From: Escherichia coli
Lineage (GTDB): Bacteria > Pseudomonadota > Gammaproteobacteria > Enterobacterales > Enterobacteriaceae
Reading direction: 5' to 3' (one strand)
Length of the DNA: 64,000 nt
NCBI RefSeq assembly: GCF_024502345.1
Contig: NZ_JALDNN010000001.1
In this document: positions 32,660-59,886 of the stretch, in pieces
Layout: every line of letters begins with the position of its first letter
Position numbering within the stretch: position 1 is the first letter of the stretch
The notes under the pieces: generated by a model
What the model saw: the letters and a program-made list of their open reading frames with translations, nothing else
What the model was told of the DNA's origin: nothing
Database searches by the model: none
Program-made: the position numbers and the translations under genes

Positions 32660-32965
32660 AACAATTTCCCTTCATTGAATGAATGGAGATTTACCCAAAA
32701 ACATTTCGGGCGGGATCGAGTATACACAACTAAAGCATGCGAATTACGGCGCGGGGAATTAGCGATGGCGTTTTAGGATAATTGGAATGAATATCAAATA
32801 TAAGTTTCAGCTTATATTTAAATAACAATAAAAATCACAAACTTAAAATAAAAACAAAAGTAATTAATCTGCGTATTTTCCGAAATAAACAACGATTAAA
32901 AATCTATTTTAGGATTAACCTCACGGTATGATTTCCGTTAAATCACAGACAAGGGGATTTATCTG

Positions 32966-32996
32966 ATAAAAAAATGCCGACATAACGTCGGCATTG
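32966..32996 (-). terminator. Rho-independent terminator downstream of pgi
   Basis: Minus strand AATGCCGACGTTATGTCGGCATT hairpin followed by TTTTTTT. Confidence 0.7.
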
Positions 32997-33067
32997 TTAT
33001 TAAGGTTATTTAATCAATCGTGCTATGTATTAATTGCCGAATACGATGTACATATCGGCATCGACCT

Positions 33068-33146
33068 GTAGGCCTGATAAGACGCGACCGCGTCGCATCA
33101 GGCATCGGTTGCCGGATGCGGCGTGAACGCCTTATCCGGCCTACAT
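33068..33146. repeat. REP cluster downstream of pgi
   Basis: GTAGGCCTGATAAGACGCGACCGCGTCGCATCAGGC and GCCGGATGCGGCGTGAACGCCTTATCCGGCCTAC. Confidence 0.8.
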
Positions 33147-33170
33147 AGCGGCATCAGGCATGAACGATGA

Positions 33171-34820
33171 TTAACCGCGCCACGCTTTATAGCGGTTAAT
33201 CAGACCATTGGTCGAGCTATCGTGGCTGCTGATTTCTTTATCATCTTTCAGCTCTGGCAGAATACGGTTCGCCAGCTGTTTACCCAGTTCCACGCCCCAC
33301 TGGTCGAAGGTGAAGATGTTCAGGATCACGCCCTGAGTAAAGATTTTGTGCTCATACAGCGCAATCAACGCACCCAAGCTGAACGGAGTGATTTCACGCA
33401 GCAGGATGGAGTTGGTCGGGCGGTTACCTTCGAACACTTTGAACGGCACCACGTAGTCAAGCGTTGCCGGATCTTTACCCTGATCGCGATATTCCTGCTC
33501 AACCACTTCGCGGGATTTACCAAACGCCAGCGCTTCGGTCTGAGCAAAGAAGTTAGACAGCAGTTTCTGGTGATGATCAGAGAGCGGGTTATGGGTGATA
33601 GCCGGGGCGATGAAATCGCACGGTACCATTTTGGTTCCCTGATGGATCAGCTGATAGAACGCGTGCTGACCGTTAGTGCCTGGTTCACCCCAGATAATCG
33701 GGCCAGTCTGGTAATCCACAACGTTACCGTTACGGTCAACATACTTACCGTTGGACTCCATATTGCCCTGCTGGAAGTACGCCGCGAAACGGTGCATATA
33801 CTGGTCATACGGCAGAATCGCTTCAGTTTCCGCACCAAAGAAATTGTTGTACCAGATGCCAATCAGCGCCAACAGTACAGGCAGGTTTTTCTCGGCAGGC
33901 GTGGTGGAGAAATGCTTGTCCATCGCGTGTGCGCCAGAAAGCAGTTCAACGAAGTTATCAAAGCCGATGGAGAGAACAATCGACAGGCCAATCGCTGACC
34001 ACAAAGAGTAACGGCCGCCAACCCAGTCCCAGAACTCGAACATGTTGGCGGTATCAATACCAAACTCGCCAACGGCTTTGGCATTGGTGGAGAGCGCCGC
34101 AAAGTGTTTCGCAACGTGTTTTTCATCACCCGCCGCTTTCAGGAACCAGTCACGCGCGCTATGGGCGTTGGTCATGGTTTCCTGAGTGGTGAAGGTTTTA
34201 GATGCTACCAGGAACAGGGTAGTTTCCGGGTTTACTTTTTTCAGCACTTCCGCGATGTGGGTGCCATCGACGTTAGACACAAAGTGCATGTTCAGGTGGT
34301 TTTTGTACGGACGCAGTGCTTCGGTCACCATGTACGGGCCGAGGTCAGAACCGCCGATCCCGATGTTCACTACGTCAGTGATTGCTTTGCCGGTATAACC
34401 CTTCCACTCACCGGAGATAATCGCTTCCGAGAAGGTTTTCATCTTCTCCAGCACCGCGTTGACTTCCGGCATTACGTCTTTGCCATCAACCAGAATCGGG
34501 GTATTGCTACGGTTACGCAGCGCTACGTGCAGCACGGCGCGGTTTTCAGTGCGGTTGATCTTCTCGCCAGAGAACATCGACTTAATCGCGCCCGCCAGAT
34601 CGCACTCTTTCGCCAGATCTTGTAATTTCGCCAGCGTCTCTTCAGTGATGCGGTTTTTGGAGTAATCCACCAGCATCTGATCGTCGAAGGTTGCGGAGAA
34701 CTTAGAAAAACGATCGCCGTCTTTAGCAAAAAGATCGGCGATCGTAACGTCTTTCATTTCATCGAAGTGTTTCTGTAGTGCCTGCCAGGCAGCGGTCTGC
34801 GTTGGATTGATGTTTTTCAT
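33171..34820 (-). CDS. pgi: Glucose-6-phosphate isomerase
   Basis: [58 protein letters not shown]... 549 aa from the internal start. Confidence 0.95.
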
Positions 34821-35059
34821 TAGCAATACTCTTCTGATTTTGAGAATTGTGACTTTGGAAGATTGTAGCGCCAGTCACAGAAAAATGTGATGGTTTTAGT
34901 GCCGTTAGCGTAATGTTGAGTGTAAACCCTTAGCGCAGTGAAGCATTTATTAGCTGAACTACTGACCGCCAGGAGTGGATGAAAAATCCGCATGACCCCG
35001 TCGTTGACAACCGCCCCGCTCACCCTTTATTTATAAATGTACTACCTGCGCTAGCGCAG

Positions 35060-35335
35060 GCCAGAAGAGGCGCGTTGCCCAAGTAACGGTGTTGGAGGAG
35101 CCAGTCCTGTGATAACACCTGAGGGGGTGCATCGCCGAGGTGATTGAACGGCTGGCCACGTTCATCATCGGCTACAGGGGCTGAATCCCCTGGGTTGTCA
35201 CCAGAAGCGTTCGCAGTCGGGCGTTTCGCAAGTGGTGGAGCACTTCTGGGTGAAAATAGTAGCGAAGTATCGCTCTGCGCCCACCCGTCTTCCGCTCTTC
35301 CCTTGTGCCAAGGCTGAAAATGGATCCCCTGACAC
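35060..35335 (+). promoter_or_regulatory. Lysine riboswitch (L-box) in the lysC 5' leader
   Basis: Leader begins AGAGGCGCGTTGCCCAAGTAACGGTGTTGGAGGAGCCAG... and contains GGTTGTCACCAGAAGCG; long structured leader directly upstream of lysC, a known lysine-riboswitch-controlled gene; boundaries approximate. Confidence 0.75.
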
Positions 35336-35344
35336 GAGGTAGTT

Positions 35345-36694
35345 ATGTCTGAAATTGTTGTCTCCAAATTTGGCGGTACCAGCGTAGCTGATTTTGACGC
35401 CATGAACCGCAGCGCTGATATTGTGCTTTCTGATGCCAACGTACGTTTAGTTGTCCTCTCGGCTTCTGCTGGTATCACTAATCTGCTGGTCTCTTTAGCC
35501 GAAGGACTGGAACCTGGCGAGCGATTCGAAAAACTCGACGCAATCCGCAATATCCAGTTTGCCATTCTGGAACGTCTGCGTTACCCGAACGTTATCCGTG
35601 AAGAGATTGAACGTCTGCTGGAGAACATTACTGTTCTGGCAGAAGCGGCGGCGCTGGCAACGTCTCCGGCGCTGACAGATGAACTGGTCAGCCACGGCGA
35701 GCTGATGTCGACCCTGCTGTTTGTTGAGATCCTGCGCGAACGCGATGTTCAGGCACAGTGGTTTGATGTACGTAAAGTGATGCGTACCAACGACCGATTT
35801 GGTCGTGCAGAGCCAGATGTAGCCGCGCTGGCGGAACTGGCCGCGCTGCAGCTGCTCCCACGCCTCAATGAAGGCTTAGTGATCACCCAGGGATTTATCG
35901 GTAGCGAAAATAAAGGTCGTACAACGACGCTTGGCCGTGGAGGCAGCGATTATACGGCAGCCTTGCTGGCGGAGGCTTTACACGCATCTCGTGTTGATAT
36001 CTGGACCGACGTCCCGGGCATCTACACCACCGATCCACGCGTGGTTTCCGCAGCAAAACGCATTGATGAAATCGCGTTTGCCGAAGCGGCAGAGATGGCA
36101 ACTTTTGGTGCAAAAGTACTGCATCCGGCAACATTGCTACCCGCAGTACGCAGCGATATCCCGGTCTTTGTCGGCTCCAGCAAAGACCCACGCGCAGGTG
36201 GTACGCTGGTGTGCAATAAAACTGAAAATCCGCCGCTGTTCCGCGCGCTGGCGCTTCGTCGCAATCAGACTCTGCTCACTTTGCACAGCCTGAATATGCT
36301 GCATTCTCGCGGTTTCCTCGCGGAAGTTTTCGGCATCCTCGCGCGGCATAATATTTCGGTAGACTTAATCACCACGTCAGAAGTGAGCGTGGCATTAACC
36401 CTTGATACCACCGGTTCAACCTCCACTGGCGATACGTTGCTGACGCAATCTCTGCTGATGGAGCTTTCCGCACTGTGCCGGGTGGAGGTGGAAGAAGGTC
36501 TGGCGCTGGTCGCGTTGATTGGCAATGACCTGTCAAAAGCCTGCGGCGTTGGCAAAGAGGTATTCGGCGTACTGGAACCGTTCAACATTCGCATGATTTG
36601 TTATGGCGCATCCAGCCATAACCTGTGCTTCCTGGTGCCCGGCGAAGATGCCGAGCAGGTGGTGCAAAAACTGCATAGTAATTTGTTTGAGTAA
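35345..36694 (+). CDS. lysC: Lysine-sensitive aspartokinase III
   Basis: 449 aa MSEIVVSKFGGTSVADFDAMNRSADIVLSDANVRLVVLSASAGITNLLVSLAEG... Confidence 0.97.
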   Translation: MSEIVVSKFGGTSVADFDAMNRSADIVLSDANVRLVVLSASAGITNLLVSLAEGLEPGERFEKLDAIRNIQFAILERLRYPNVIREEIERLLENITVLAEAAALATSPALTDELVSHGELMSTLLFVEILRERDVQAQWFDVRKVMRTNDRFGRAEPDVAALAELAALQLLPRLNEGLVITQGFIGSENKGRTTTLGRGGSDYTAALLAEALHASRVDIWTDVPGIYTTDPRVVSAAKRIDEIAFAEAAEMATFGAKVLHPATLLPAVRSDIPVFVGSSKDPRAGGTLVCNKTENPPLFRALALRRNQTLLTLHSLNMLHSRGFLAEVFGILARHNISVDLITTSEVSVALTLDTTGSTSTGDTLLTQSLLMELSALCRVEVEEGLALVALIGNDLSKACGVGKEVFGVLEPFNIRMICYGASSHNLCFLVPGEDAEQVVQKLHSNLFE

Positions 36695-36946
36695 ATACTG
36701 TATGGCCTGGAAGCTATATTTCGGGCCGTATTGATTTTCTTGTCACTATGCTCATCAATAAACGAGCCTGTACTCTGTTAACCAGCGTCTTTATCGGAGA
36801 ATAATTGCCTTTAATTTTTTTATCTGCATCTCTAATTAATTATCGAAAGAGATAAATAGTTAAGAGAAGGCAAAATGAACATTATCAGTTCTGCTCGCAA
36901 ACGAATTCCCGTACACTGAACTCTCTGGCTCACTGAGGGCACCATC

Positions 36947-37219
36947 ATGGCACTCCCGCGTATTACCCAAAAAGAGATGACTGAACGCGAGCAGCGTGAA
37001 CTTAAAACACTGCTGGATCGGGCGCGGATTGCGCATGGTCGCGTACTGACCAACTCCGAAACCAACAGCATTAAGAAAGAGTACATCGATAAATTAATGG
37101 TCGAGCGTGAGGCTGAAGCGAAAAAAGCCCGCCAGTTAAAGAAAAAGCAGGCTTATAAACCGGATCCTGAAGCGTCATTCAGTTGGTCGGCAAATACGTC
37201 GACGCGCGGCAGGCGCTGA
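36947..37219 (+). CDS. yjbD: Small uncharacterised protein YjbD
   Basis: 90 aa MALPRITQKEMTEREQRELKTLLDRARIAHGRVLTNSETNSIKKEYIDKLMVEREAEAKKARQ... Confidence 0.75.
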   Translation: MALPRITQKEMTEREQRELKTLLDRARIAHGRVLTNSETNSIKKEYIDKLMVEREAEAKKARQLKKKQAYKPDPEASFSWSANTSTRGRR

Positions 37220-38092
37220 TTAGCGCCCCTTCTTTTTACGCCCCGGCGAGGTAAAACGCTTACCGTTGGACGCCGGGCGACCGCCTTTTTCCGCCGTTTT
37301 TTCCATCTTAACGACTGGACGTTTGATGCCCGCCGTTTTCGGTTTAGCCTTCGCTTTAGGTTTTGCCTCGGAAGAGGAATTTTCAATGAGCTTAAAGAGG
37401 TCGATTAACTCATCGTCGGTTAAATCGCGCCACTCCCCCAGCGGAATGCCGCTTAAGCTGACGTTCATAATGCGCGTACGTTCCAGCTTTTTCACTTCAT
37501 AGCCGAAATGCTCGCACATGCGCCGGATCTGACGGTTCAGCCCCTGCACCAGGGTAATGCGGAAGACAAACGGCGCTTCTTTTTTGACTTTGCACTTTTT
37601 CGTCACCGTCCCGAGGATCGGCACCCCCGCCCCCATACCACGAATAAATTCATCGGTAATCGGTTTATCGACCGTCACCAGATACTCTTTCTCATGATCG
37701 TTACCCGCACGGAGGATCTTATTCACCAGATCGCCGTGATTGGTGAGGAAAATCAGCCCCTGGGAGTCTTTATCCAGGCGGCCAATCGGGAACACGCGTT
37801 TGCTGTGGTTAACGAAATCGACAATGTTATCGCGCTCGCCATCTTCGGTGGTGCTGACAATACCGACGGGCTTGTTCAGGGCGATAAGTACCAAATCTTC
37901 GGCTTCCCGAGGCTCAATCAACTGACCGTTTACTTTCACAATGTCGCCGGGTTTCACCTGATCGCCAATGGTGGCTCGCTTGCCATTAAGGAACACATTG
38001 CCTTGCTCGATATAGCGATCCGCTTCGCGGCGTGAGCAAATTCCGCTTTCGCTGATGTATTTATTTAAACGGACTGATGAGTCGGGCAGCAT
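37220..38092 (-). CDS. rluF: 23S rRNA pseudouridine synthase RluF
   Basis: 290 aa [56 protein letters not shown]... (S4 domain plus pseudouridine synthase). Confidence 0.9.
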
Positions 38093-49875: not shown

Positions 49876-50008
49876 GCCGGATGCGGCGTAAATGCCTTAT
49901 CCGGCCTACGTTCGGCAACGGCTGTAGGCATGATAAGACGCGCAAGCGTCGCATCAGGCATCGTGCACCGATTGCCGGATGCGGCGTGAACGCCTTATCC
50001 GGCCTACA
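49876..50008. repeat. REP/BIME cluster in the aceA-aceK intergenic region
   Basis: Three REP-like palindromes (GCCGGATGCGGCGTAAATGCCTTATCCGGCCTAC ... GTAGGCATGATAAGACGCGCAAGCGTCGCATCAGGC ... GCCGGATGCGGCGTGAACGCCTTATCCGGCCTAC). Confidence 0.85.
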
Positions 50009-54875: not shown

Positions 54876-54995
54876 ATGCCTGGCAGTTCCCTACTCTCGC
54901 ATGGGGAGACCCCACACTACCATCGGCGCTACGGCGTTTCACTTCTGAGTTCGGCATGGGGTCAGGTGGGACCACCGCGCTACGGCCGCCAGGCA
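54876..54995 (-). rRNA. rrfE: 5S ribosomal RNA
   Basis: Reverse complement is TGCCTGGCGGCCGTAGCGCGGTGGTCCCACCTGACCCCATGCCGAACTCAGAAGTGAAACGCCGTAGCGCCGATGGTAGTGTGGGGTCTCCCCATGCGAGAGTAGGGAACTGCCAGGCAT, 120 nt. Confidence 0.97.
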
Positions 54996-55087
54996 AATTC
55001 TGTTTTATCAGACCGCTTCTGCGTTCTGATTTAATCTGTATCAGGCTGAAAATCTTCTCTCATCCGCCAAAACACCTTCGGCGTTGT

Positions 55088-57990
<2,903 letters not shown>

Positions 57991-58183
57991 TCACAACCCG
58001 AAGATGTTTCTTTCGATTCATCATCGTGTTGCGAAAATTTGAGAGACTCACGAACAACTTTCGTTGTTCAGTGTTTCAATTTTCAGCTTGATCCAGATTT
58101 TTAAAGAGCAAATATCTCAAACATCACCCGAAGATGAGTTTTGAGATATCAAGGCAGGTGACTTTCACTCACAAACCAGCAAG

Positions 58184-58259
58184 TGGCGTCCCCTAGGGGA
58201 TTCGAACCCCTGTTACCGCCGTGAAAGGGCGGTGTCCTGGGCCTCTAGACGAAGGGGAC
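58184..58259 (-). tRNA. gltV: tRNA-Glu (UUC) in the 16S-23S spacer
   Basis: Reverse complement GTCCCCTTCGTCTAGAGGCCCAGGACACCGCCCTTTCACGGCGGTAACAGGGGTTCGAATCCCCTAGGGGACGCCA, 76 nt with CCA. Confidence 0.95.
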
Positions 58260-58344
58260 GTATCAGTCTGCTTCGCAAGACGCCTTGCTTTTCACTTTCT
58301 ATCAGACAATCTGTGTGAGCACTACAAAGTACGCTTCTTTAAGG

Positions 58345-59886
<1,542 letters not shown>

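What the first reader, a model, noticed from the sequence alone, without database searches (positions are those of the whole stretch)
35060..35335. Lysine riboswitch upstream of lysC appears intact
The roughly 300 nt leader contains recognisable L-box elements, consistent with the well-known lysine-responsive control of lysC. It is listed because it is a structured RNA element that a protein-only annotation would miss, and an antisense ORF (35020-35565) overlaps it spuriously.
Basis: partly seen in the sequence, partly recalled or inferred. Interest (0 to 1): 0.3.

Follow-up and report, generated by a model that had tools for sequence, protein, structure and literature searches.

The report
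Known E. coli lysC lysine riboswitch
This is the well-studied lysine-sensing RNA switch in front of the E. coli aspartokinase gene lysC; it is complete and letter-for-letter the same as in the laboratory strain, so it is real but ordinary.

Summary
Rfam's Lysine riboswitch model (RF00168) matches window 35057-35253 (+) over its full length at 99.5 bits (threshold 30, E 2e-26). The match lies 91 nt upstream of lysC (35345-36694). The window is E. coli. The leader is present in 5425 of 5426 complete genomes, RefSeq already annotates it as a riboswitch, and the transcribed leader is identical to K-12.

The published MG1655 mechanism therefore applies. Lysine binding locks P1. An SD-sequestering helix (35301-07/35333-39) then forms, and a C-rich tract (35264-35308) is exposed to RNase E and Rho. 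There is no intrinsic terminator, so this is not the Bacillus L-box attenuation mechanism.

In 55 Enterobacterales leaders, the aptamer helices and the L2-L3 kissing loop covary strongly. The expression-platform helices are conserved but too invariant to covary.

The antisense ORF 35020-35565 exists. It has no Pfam match, is unannotated, and stays open in only 6 of 110 relatives, so it is spurious.

The one mildly new item is a covarying 5' hairpin (35045-35060) that abuts P1 and lies outside the Rfam model.

Verdict: already known, low interest.

The parts
35004..35033 (+). lysC promoter: -35 TTGACA (35004-09), 18-nt spacer, -10 TATTTA (35028-33)
   Evidence: Read directly from the sequence. 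TTGACA is present 54-97 nt (mostly 60-66 nt) upstream of the aptamer core in 90 of 110 related leaders. The generic promoter scan did not call it because the -10 is weak. That it acts as the promoter is an inference.
35039..35039 (+). Transcription start (+1, G)
   Evidence: Derived from the numbering in PMC10946432. With +1 = 35039, +250-253 reads UCUU, +307-309 AUG, +349 G, +354-357 UUUU and +364 A, each as published. It was not measured here.
35045..35060 (+). 5' hairpin (CCUGCG / CGCAGG, loop CUAG) directly abutting P1; not part of the Rfam model
   Evidence: Across 55 leaders 84.5% of cells are paired and 5 of 6 pairs show compensatory changes; 0 of 500 shuffles reach the covariation score. 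In single-sequence folds, 79 of 94 distinct leaders form a hairpin of at least 5 bp ending within 2 nt of P1, with median z -2.2. The hairpin alone folds at -9.9 kcal/mol.
35057..35253 (+). Lysine riboswitch aptamer. P1 35061-67/35243-49; P2 35072-80/35127-35; P2a 35087-94/35113-20; P3 35139-50/35159-69; P4 35170-80/35187-96; P5 35198-204/35232-38, with an 18-nt lineage-specific insertion in the P5 loop
   Evidence: RF00168 at 99.5 bits. Helix coordinates were parsed from the cmscan alignment. Across relatives 93% of cells are paired, 21 of 47 pairs show compensatory changes, and 0 of 500 shuffles reach that. RefSeq annotates a 'riboswitch' at the same place.
35100..35156 (+). L2-L3 kissing-loop contact: GCCA (35100-03) with UGGC (35153-56)
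   Evidence: Two pairs are invariant C-G. Two pairs covary: one is paired in 48 of 55 leaders (G-C, A-U, U-A and G.U types) and the other in 51 of 55 (A-U swapping with G-C). 0 of 5000 shuffles reach either.
35228..35306 (+). Anti-P1 / antisequester stem of the ON state: 35228-32/35302-06, 35234-35/35300-01, 35237-41/35294-98, 35247-52/35282-87, with an apical hairpin 35257-65/35270-77
   Evidence: It forms in unconstrained ViennaRNA folds and folds alone at -31.3 kcal/mol. It uses the 3' strands of P5 and P1 and the anti-SD strand. Across 55 leaders 86.6% of cells are pair-compatible, against 48-70% when the partner is slid, but there is no covariation power. It matches the 'anti-P1 stem' described in PMC10946432.
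35264..35308 (+). C-rich, G-poor tract (+226..+270), the published rut site. It contains RNase E Site1 UCUU(CC) at 35288-93 and a second UCUUCC repeat at 35296-301, which I infer to be Site2
   Evidence: C is 43-50% and G 17-20% here, the only such stretch in the leader. PMC10946432 places the rut at about +240 and Site1 at +250-253, which is window 35288-91. The Site2 position is my inference from the repeat.
35301..35339 (+). SD-sequestering helix of the OFF state: CCUUGUG (35301-07) with CACGAGG (35333-39), and a 25-nt loop
   Evidence: Each of the 7 pairs is a standard pair in 91-98% of 55 leaders, with no compensatory changes. In relatives the loop carries inserts of 0-60 nt between the two conserved strands. 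With the aptamer and this helix enforced, the SD is unpaired with probability 0.00, against 0.68 in the ON model.
35336..35347 (+). Shine-Dalgarno GAGG (35336-39) and AUG (35345-47). G35347 is the published pause and Rho/NusG termination site G309
   Evidence: PMC10946432.
35345..36694 (+). lysC, lysine-sensitive aspartokinase III (449 aa). The published early Rho termination sites G349, U354-357 and A364 fall at 35387-35402
   Evidence: ORF. Pfam AA_kinase 1.8e-46 plus ACT domains. RefSeq annotation. Site mapping.
35020..35565 (-). Antisense 181-aa ORF, judged a chance ORF and not part of the mechanism
   Evidence: It is present. It has no Pfam family and no RefSeq CDS. An antisense frame is open over the equivalent span in 6 of 110 relatives, and the median longest open stretch is 96.5 of 187 codons.

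Best explanation
This is the E. coli lysC lysine riboswitch, a cis-acting OFF switch in the 306-nt 5' UTR of the aspartokinase III mRNA.

Without lysine, the 3' strands of P5 and P1 pair with the downstream C-rich tract and the anti-SD strand. This is the anti-P1 stem, 35228-52 with 35282-306. The Shine-Dalgarno sequence is then free, the C-rich tract is mostly double-stranded, and lysC is translated.

When lysine binds the five-helix junction, P1 (35061-67/35243-49) is locked. The anti-SD strand CCUUGUG pairs with CACGAGG and hides the SD, so translation initiation is blocked. The pyrimidine-rich tract 35264-35308 becomes single-stranded. RNase E cleaves it at the UCUU sites, and Rho loads on it as a rut site, terminating at the pause at G35347 and further into the ORF.

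Shown here: the aptamer, its intactness, the mutually exclusive helices, the C-rich tract, the absence of a terminator, and identity to K-12. Taken from the literature for the identical sequence: lysine binding, RNase E cleavage and Rho termination. Inferred: that switching is kinetic (co-transcriptional), because thermodynamic models favour the ON fold.
For: RF00168 matches over its full length at 99.5 bits. The helices carry compensatory changes in 55 Enterobacterales leaders: 21 of 47 pairs, with 0 of 500 shuffles reaching that. The L2-L3 kissing loop covaries. lysC follows directly on the same strand. An aspartokinase motif follows 111 of 120 pattern matches in other genomes. The leader 35001-35442 is identical to K-12 TG1, is present in 5425 of 5426 complete E. 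coli genomes, and is annotated 'riboswitch'. The anti-P1 stem appears in unconstrained folds. The ON and OFF models give SD unpaired probabilities of 0.68 and 0.00, and Site2 unpaired probabilities of 0.17 and 0.77. The C-rich, G-poor peak is at +226..+270. There is no terminator-like site on the + strand between the aptamer and the AUG. Five published positions fit the sequence exactly. The mechanism is described in PMC10946432 and PMC5499598. The aptamer-platform overlap of the E. coli translational variant is noted in PMC13273304.
Against: Nothing contradicts the identification. There are limits on what was tested here. The platform helices are too conserved to show covariation: anti-P1 was matched by 78 of 500 shuffles and the sequester helix by 496 of 500, so their evolutionary support is conservation only. 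In my ON model Site1 (35288-93) sits in an internal loop of the anti-P1 stem (unpaired probability about 1.0), whereas the literature says the stem protects it. ViennaRNA does not recover the aptamer fold unless constrained, and it prefers the ON-like fold by about 18 kcal/mol. The primary paper (Caron 2012) could not be read.
Confidence: 0.96

Rival explanations
1. Bacillus-type L-box. The same aptamer, but acting by transcription attenuation, with lysine promoting an intrinsic terminator hairpin followed by a U-tract.
For: The aptamer family is the same. Rho-dependent premature termination does occur here (PMC10946432), so control is partly transcriptional.
Against: No terminator-like stem plus U-run lies on the + strand between 35254 and 35344. 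The conserved downstream blocks are an anti-SD/SD pair rather than a terminator. The literature assigns translational, RNase E and Rho control.
Confidence: 0.02
2. In E. coli the SD is masked mainly by the extreme 5' end of the mRNA (ACUACCU 35041-47 pairing with AGGUAGU 35337-43), not by the CCUUGUG strand.
For: This 7-bp pairing appears in ViennaRNA minimum-free-energy structures of the full leader, in both constrained and unconstrained runs.
Against: Only 64.6% of cells are pair-compatible in relatives, no better than shuffles (140 of 500) or a slide of +1 (55.8%). Three of the seven 5' bases (35045-47) belong to the covariation-supported 5' hairpin. The pairing would mask the SD in both states, which contradicts lysine-dependent translation.
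Confidence: 0.04
3. The region is protein-coding on the minus strand: the 181-aa ORF 35020-35565 is a real gene overlapping the leader.
For: An uninterrupted ATG-started ORF of 181 codons exists.
Against: It has no Pfam family and no CDS in RefSeq annotations. The frame is open over the whole span in only 6 of 110 relatives. Leader alignments contain many indels that are not multiples of three. The span is G+C-rich (the aptamer match is 60% G+C), which favours long chance ORFs.
Confidence: 0.02
4. The element is a decayed relic that no longer regulates.
For: None found.
Against: The model match is full length and 47 of 51 pairs are canonical. There are no differences from the experimentally characterised K-12 leader, while the flanking pgi and lysC carry 28 and 12 differences. 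It is nearly universal in E. coli.
Confidence: 0.01

Closest known systems
E. coli K-12 (MG1655) lysC lysine riboswitch (Caron et al. 2012 PNAS; Bastet et al. 2017, PMC5499598; Ghosh et al. 2024, PMC10946432)
   Same: It is the same element. The transcribed leader and the first 98 nt of lysC are identical to K-12 TG1. All published landmark positions fit. The aptamer, anti-P1 stem, SD sequester, UCUU RNase E site and C-rich rut are all the same.
   Different: One base differs upstream of the -35 (window 35000, G here and A in TG1). There are also synonymous-level differences within lysC and pgi.
Bacillus subtilis lysC L-box leader (Sudarsan 2003; Grundy 2003; from my own knowledge)
   Same: Same RNA family (RF00168), same five-helix junction and L2-L3 contact, same regulated gene type (aspartokinase), same OFF logic.
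   Different: The Bacillus platform is an intrinsic terminator and antiterminator. Here it is SD sequestration plus RNase E and Rho, with no terminator. The E. coli platform invades P5 as well as P1 (noted in PMC13273304). E. coli also carries an 18-nt P5 insertion and a 5' hairpin outside the model.
Thermotoga maritima asd lysine riboswitch crystal structures (Serganov 2008; Garst 2008; from my own knowledge)
   Same: The fold is expected to be the same. The junction strands AGAGG / GCCGA / UGUCA / GGAG and the kissing loop are present.
   Different: The conserved GAAAGG of the family consensus reads GAGGGGG in E. coli and its relatives.
Other E. coli translational riboswitches that also recruit Rho (thiM, thiC, ribB)
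   Same: SD masking is coupled to Rho-dependent termination (PMC5499598).
   Different: lysC additionally exposes RNase E sites within the riboswitch itself ('nucleolytic repression', PMC10946432). The pause at the start codon is not ligand-modulated in lysC.

Membership tests
Lysine riboswitch (Rfam RF00168; L-box / LYS element) | Sequence-plus-structure match to the family covariance model above the curated gathering score | tested here: met
   99.5 bits against 30, E 2.4e-26, model positions 1-182 of 182, not truncated.
Lysine riboswitch (Rfam RF00168; L-box / LYS element) | Five helices P1-P5 around a junction with the conserved strands AGAGG, GCCGA, UGUCA and GGAG | tested here: met
   All helices were located and 47 of 51 model pairs are canonical. 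The junction strands are visible in the cmscan alignment.
Lysine riboswitch (Rfam RF00168; L-box / LYS element) | Helices maintained by compensatory substitutions in orthologues | tested here: met
   In 55 leaders 93% of cells are paired, 21 of 47 pairs show two-sided changes (204 cells), 0 of 500 shuffles reach that, and slid controls give 40-49%. P1 and P5 are invariant and therefore uninformative.
Lysine riboswitch (Rfam RF00168; L-box / LYS element) | L2-L3 loop-loop (kissing) tertiary contact | tested here: met
   GCCA 35100-03 is complementary to UGGC 35153-56, and two of the four pairs covary (48 of 55 and 51 of 55 paired, 0 of 5000 shuffles). That this contact defines the fold is from my own knowledge of the crystal structures.
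Lysine riboswitch (Rfam RF00168; L-box / LYS element) | Located in cis in the 5' UTR of a lysine biosynthesis or transport gene | tested here: met
   It lies 91 nt upstream of lysC on the same strand. The same linkage holds in 111 of 120 pattern matches in other genomes.
Lysine riboswitch (Rfam RF00168; L-box / LYS element) | Direct, specific binding of L-lysine | not testable with these tools
   Reported for the identical K-12 sequence in the literature (PMC10946432 and the work cited there). Sequence identity is shown.
E. coli-type lysC riboswitch (translation + RNase E + Rho) | Mutually exclusive anti-P1 and SD-sequestering helices in this sequence | tested here: met
   Anti-P1 is 35228-52/35282-306 (-31.3 kcal/mol) and the sequester is 35301-07/35333-39. 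The two share the strand 35301-06.
E. coli-type lysC riboswitch (translation + RNase E + Rho) | Evolutionary support for the platform helices | tested here: inconclusive
   The helices are highly conserved and pair-compatible (86.6% for anti-P1, and 91-98% for each of the 7 sequester pairs), but they are not distinguishable from column-preserving shuffles.
E. coli-type lysC riboswitch (translation + RNase E + Rho) | RNase E Site1 (UCUU at +250-253) within a C-rich, G-poor rut at about +240 | tested here: met
   UCUU is at 35288-91. C is 43-50% and G 17-20% at +226..+270.
E. coli-type lysC riboswitch (translation + RNase E + Rho) | Lysine-dependent RNase E cleavage and Rho termination in vivo and in vitro | not testable with these tools
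   Literature only (PMC10946432, PMC5499598).
Bacillus-type L-box transcriptional attenuator | Intrinsic terminator (G+C-rich hairpin plus U-run) after the aptamer, overlapping an antiterminator | tested here: not met
   There is no terminator-like site on the + strand between the aptamer and the AUG. The only + strand site in 34700-35500 is at 34790, inside pgi antisense.

The most novel reading that the evidence does not exclude
The covarying 5'-terminal hairpin (35045-35060, +7..+22) lies outside the Rfam model and is not mentioned in the one lysC mechanism paper I could search for it. It ends exactly where P1 begins in most Enterobacterales. It may be an undescribed functional module of the enterobacterial lysC switch. 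It could stack coaxially on P1 and so tune lysine sensitivity. Alternatively, it could shield the 5' end from 5'-end-dependent RNase E entry, so that decay depends strictly on the internal sites the riboswitch exposes. My evidence shows the structure is conserved. It says nothing about function or prior description.
Probability: 0.3. Interest if true: 0.3.

Novelty: already known. Interest (0 to 1): 0.08.

Why it matters
For the scan, it confirms that the first-stage reader can recognise a structured RNA from raw sequence and that a protein-only annotation would miss it. NCBI's pipeline already annotates it, however. Biologically nothing new follows: this is one of the best-characterised E. 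coli riboswitches, a model for multi-layer control by translation, RNase E and Rho, and a target of the lysine analogue AEC. The small added value is a coordinate-level map of every published part onto this window. The comparative data also show that the promoter, a 5' hairpin and the platform blocks are conserved across about 30 genera of Enterobacterales.

Tried and rejected
1. Unconstrained ViennaRNA folding of the leader does not recover the aptamer. z is only -1.8 and the fold makes long-range pairings. It was used only to find candidate platform helices.

2. The 5'-end/SD pairing 35041-47/35337-43 suggested by those folds has no support in relatives.

3. Long-range pairing of the aptamer's AGGGGGU 35122-28 with AUCCCCU 35324-30 reaches 69.7% against 62.5% when slid, with no covariation. 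Rejected.

4. The local hairpin CCUUG/CAAGG 35301-05/35309-13 is pair-compatible (86%) but undecidable.

5. Covariation tests of the anti-P1 and sequester helices have no power because the columns are nearly invariant.

6. Caron 2012, Rodionov 2003 and Marbaniang & Gowrishankar 2011 are not in the held library. The position of RNase E Site2 and ArgP binding at the lysC promoter therefore rest on inference or memory.

7. The generic sigma-70 scan missed the promoter. It was located from the conserved TTGACA and the published numbering instead.

8. Six of the 120 genome pattern matches (Dehalococcoidia, Mesorhizobium, Bacillota, Planctomycetota, Woeseiaceae and a gammaproteobacterial MAG) are chance matches with no Rfam hit. 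They were excluded.

9. The sense-strand 57-aa ORF 35144-35317 lies inside the aptamer and has no Pfam match. It was disregarded.

Full report
**Observation.** A cmscan of window 33000-38000 against Rfam 15 gives one strong hit: RF00168 (Lysine riboswitch aptamer) at 35057-35253 on the + strand. It scores 99.5 bits against a gathering score of 30, with E 2.4e-26, covers model positions 1-182 of 182, and is not truncated. The hit is unchanged in a whole-window scan. I parsed the alignment into these helices:

- P1 35062-67/35243-48, which the sequence extends to 7 bp (CCAGAAG/CUUCUGG, 35061-67/35243-49)
- P2 35072-80/35127-35
- P2a 35087-94/35113-20
- P3 35139-50/35159-69
- P4 35170-80/35187-96
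- P5 35198-204/35232-38

Of 51 model pairs, 47 are canonical. The only departure from the model is an 18-nt insertion in the P5 loop. The next ORF on the same strand, 35345-36694, is an aspartokinase (Pfam AA_kinase 1.8e-46 plus ACT domains).

**Identity of the locus.** The 574 bases around the leader match 5425 of 5426 complete E. coli genomes. In 5419 of them identity is at least 99%, and RefSeq already labels the spot 'riboswitch | lysC'. In K-12 strain TG1 the annotated riboswitch corresponds exactly to 35057-35253. A base-by-base comparison over 3.6 kb shows 42 differences from TG1. None falls between 35001 and 35442. The whole transcribed leader is therefore identical to K-12, while pgi carries 28 differences and lysC 12. 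Experiments done on MG1655 apply to this sequence directly.

**Mapping the published mechanism.** Ghosh et al. 2024 (PMC10946432) number the leader from the TSS. They report G309 as the last base of the AUG and a pause and Rho/NusG termination site. They also report Rho termination at G349, U354-357 and A364, RNase E Site1 at +250-253, and a C-rich rut at about +240. Setting +1 = G35039 reproduces every one of these bases (UCUU, AUG, G, UUUU, A), so the TSS assignment is secure although it was not measured here.

The paper, together with Bastet 2017 (PMC5499598), describes the mechanism. Without lysine, an anti-P1 (antisequestering) stem keeps the SD free and hides the RNase E and rut region. 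With lysine, P1 forms, the SD is sequestered, RNase E cleaves the exposed sites, and Rho terminates.

**What the sequence itself shows.** ViennaRNA folds contain a long irregular hairpin that pairs 35228-52 with 35282-306. The first strand comprises the 3' strand of P5, J5/1, the 3' strand of P1 and GGUG. The second comprises the C-rich tract and the first six bases (35301-06) of the anti-SD strand CCUUGUG (35301-07). Alone it folds at -31.3 kcal/mol. The alternative 7-bp helix CCUUGUG (35301-07) with CACGAGG (35333-39) covers the SD GAGG (35336-39) and shares strand 35301-06 with the anti-P1 stem, so the two are mutually exclusive.

Constrained ensembles give these unpaired probabilities:

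| Model | SD | Second UCUUCC |
|---|---|---|
| ON | 0.68 | 0.17 |
| OFF, with sequester helix enforced | 0.00 | 0.77 |
| OFF, aptamer only enforced | 0.12 | 0.69 |

The only C-rich, G-poor stretch of the leader is +226..+270 (C 43-50%, G 17-20%), where the rut is published. No intrinsic-terminator-like site lies between the aptamer and the AUG, so the Bacillus-style attenuation implied by 'L-box' does not apply.

There are two caveats. In my ON model Site1 itself (35288-93) lies in an internal loop of the stem rather than in a helix. ViennaRNA also favours the ON-like fold by about 18 kcal/mol over the aptamer-enforced fold. That implies kinetic, co-transcriptional switching, or tertiary and ligand energies the program does not model. 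This last point is an inference.

**Comparative test.** One DNA-pattern scan of 100,044 species genomes used three aptamer-core strings (AGAGGCGC...CGCCGAGG...TTGTCAC). They break down as follows:

- 111 have an aspartokinase KFGGTS motif 226-411 nt downstream.
- 3 are truncated.
- 6 are chance matches with no Rfam hit.

Fifty-five non-redundant Enterobacterales leaders from about 30 genera were aligned (A1), and each candidate structure was tested on the alignment:

| Structure | Window coordinates | Cells paired | Covariation result |
|---|---|---|---|
| Aptamer | P1-P5 | 93% | 21 of 47 pairs compensatory (204 cells); 0/500 shuffles; 40-49% when slid |
| L2-L3 kissing loop | 35100-03 : 35153-56 | 48/55 and 51/55 at the two variable pairs | 0/5000 shuffles |
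| Anti-P1 stem | 35228-52/35282-306 | 86.6% (48-70% slid) | Almost no two-sided changes; matched by 78/500 shuffles |
| Sequester helix | 35301-07/35333-39 | 91-98% at each of 7 pairs | No compensatory changes |

The anti-P1 and sequester helices are therefore supported by conservation, not covariation. Relatives carry inserts of 0-60 nt between the two conserved strands of the sequester helix. That pattern fits a helix closing a free loop. [quoted passage not shown]

**The antisense ORF.** It has no Pfam family and no CDS in any RefSeq row inspected. In 110 related loci an antisense frame is open over the equivalent span in only 6, and the median longest open stretch is 96.5 of 187 codons. 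The leader alignment is full of indels that are not multiples of three.

**Things found beyond the finding.**

1. A hairpin at 35045-50/35055-60 (+7..+22; a perfect 16-nt palindrome in E. coli) ends right where P1 begins. It is outside the Rfam model. Across A1 it is 84.5% paired, with 5 of 6 pairs showing compensatory changes and 0 of 500 shuffles reaching the covariation score. In single-sequence folds, 79 of 94 distinct leaders form a hairpin of at least 5 bp ending within 2 nt of P1 (median z -2.2). The words 'hairpin' and 'stem-loop' do not occur in PMC10946432. I could not check the older literature. Its role (coaxial stacking on P1, or 5'-end protection against RNase E) is speculation.

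2. The -35 TTGACA (35004-09) is present 54-97 nt (mostly 60-66 nt) upstream of the aptamer core in 90 of 110 relatives. An ATG-N9-CAT dyad (ATGAAAAATCCGCAT, 34979-93, -60..-46) resembles a LysR-type T-N11-A box. A relaxed form of it occurs in 42 of 90 relatives, against 10 control hits. This may be the ArgP site behind the 'promoter-level' lysine control mentioned in PMC10946432 and PMC6254735. It was not verified.

3. In E. coli WB61, an ISEcp1 element and a DUF4942 gene fragment sit inside the leader. The upstream copy of the leader stops at window 35337. A second copy restarts at 35229, immediately after the ISEcp1 outward promoter. lysC is therefore preceded by an aptamer-less leader. The junction contains an N, so an assembly artefact is possible.

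**Rejected ideas.** The 5'-end/SD pairing (35041-47/35337-43) has no support in relatives. Neither does the aptamer/pre-SD pairing (35122-28/35324-30). Both were predicted by ViennaRNA. The local CCUUG/CAAGG hairpin remains undecided.

**Verdict.** This is the already-known, already-annotated and experimentally dissected E. coli lysC lysine riboswitch, intact and identical to K-12. Its mechanism is SD sequestration coupled to RNase E cleavage and Rho termination, not intrinsic termination. Novelty: already known. Interest: low (0.08). The most novel reading left open is that the conserved 5' hairpin is an undescribed functional part of the enterobacterial switch (probability about 0.3; modest interest if true).

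Noticed in passing
window 35045-35060 (+): A 5' hairpin (perfect 16-nt palindrome CCTGCGCTAGCGCAGG) directly abuts P1 and lies outside the Rfam lysine model. It covaries across about 30 Enterobacterales genera (5 of 6 pairs compensatory), and 79 of 94 distinct leaders fold it. It is absent in Siccibacter, Franconibacter and the non-enterobacterial relatives.
   Followed up: yes
window 34979-35033 (+): The promoter is conserved: TTGACA is present 54-97 nt (mostly 60-66 nt) upstream of the aptamer core in 90 of 110 relatives, with a weak -10 TATTTA. Upstream, the dyad ATGAAAAATCCGCAT (-60..-46) looks like a LysR-type T-N11-A box. It is a candidate ArgP site for promoter-level lysine control, but it was not verified because the ArgP paper is not held.
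   Followed up: partly
L002 (E. coli WB61, NZ_CP020025.1) 3511-5355; window 35229-35337: ISEcp1 plus a DUF4942 pseudogene fragment is inserted in the lysC leader, with a 109-bp duplication of leader sequence. lysC then sits behind the ISEcp1 outward promoter (TTGAAA...TACAAT) with a leader that lacks the aptamer. The assembly has an N at the junction, so this could be an artefact.
   Followed up: partly
window 35204-35227 (+); L003 (Enterobacter sp. BIGb0383): P5 carries an 18-nt insertion relative to the Rfam consensus that forms its own extension hairpin (GAAGCGUUCG/CGGGCGUUUC). One relative has a further insertion of about 29 nt after it.
   Followed up: no
window 35308-35332 (+); alignment A1 columns about 355-424: The loop of the SD-sequestering helix is 25 nt in E. 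coli. Relatives carry inserts of up to about 60 nt there, often with their own G+C-rich hairpin. The block CCUGAC just 5' of the SD strand is nearly invariant and has no assigned partner.
   Followed up: partly
window 33326-36899 versus L001: There are no substitutions between 35001 and 35442 relative to K-12 TG1, while pgi has 28 differences and lysC 12 in the same 3.6 kb. This is consistent with strong constraint on the leader, but the numbers are small.
   Followed up: partly
window 33071-33141, 18394-18464, 23400-23470, 49927-50004: Four matches to Rfam naRNA4 (REP/BIME-type palindromic repeats). The one at 33071-33141 lies just downstream of pgi.
   Followed up: no
window 32856-33005 (+): Match to the enterobacterial sRNA family STnc430 (77.7 bits, threshold 47) between yjbE and the 3' end of pgi.
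   Followed up: no
window 54878-59886 (-): A complete rRNA operon (16S, a spacer tRNA at 58187-58259, a StyR-44 match at 57998-58106, 23S and 5S).
   Followed up: no
(E. coli genome search): One of 5426 complete E. coli genomes lacks the leader, and one genome carries a second copy on a plasmid. Neither was examined.
   Followed up: no
L025, L028, L029, L085: Alteromonadaceae, Zobellella, Idiomarina and Shewanella also have RF00168 hits (71-95 bits) upstream of an aspartokinase. Zobellella and Idiomarina have shorter leaders (aptamer core to start codon 226-232 nt, against 279 nt in E. coli), while the Alteromonadaceae and Shewanella leaders are longer (327 and 345 nt). None of the four shows the enterobacterial type of 5' hairpin next to P1, though the Zobellella leader has a different 5-bp hairpin there.
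   Followed up: partly
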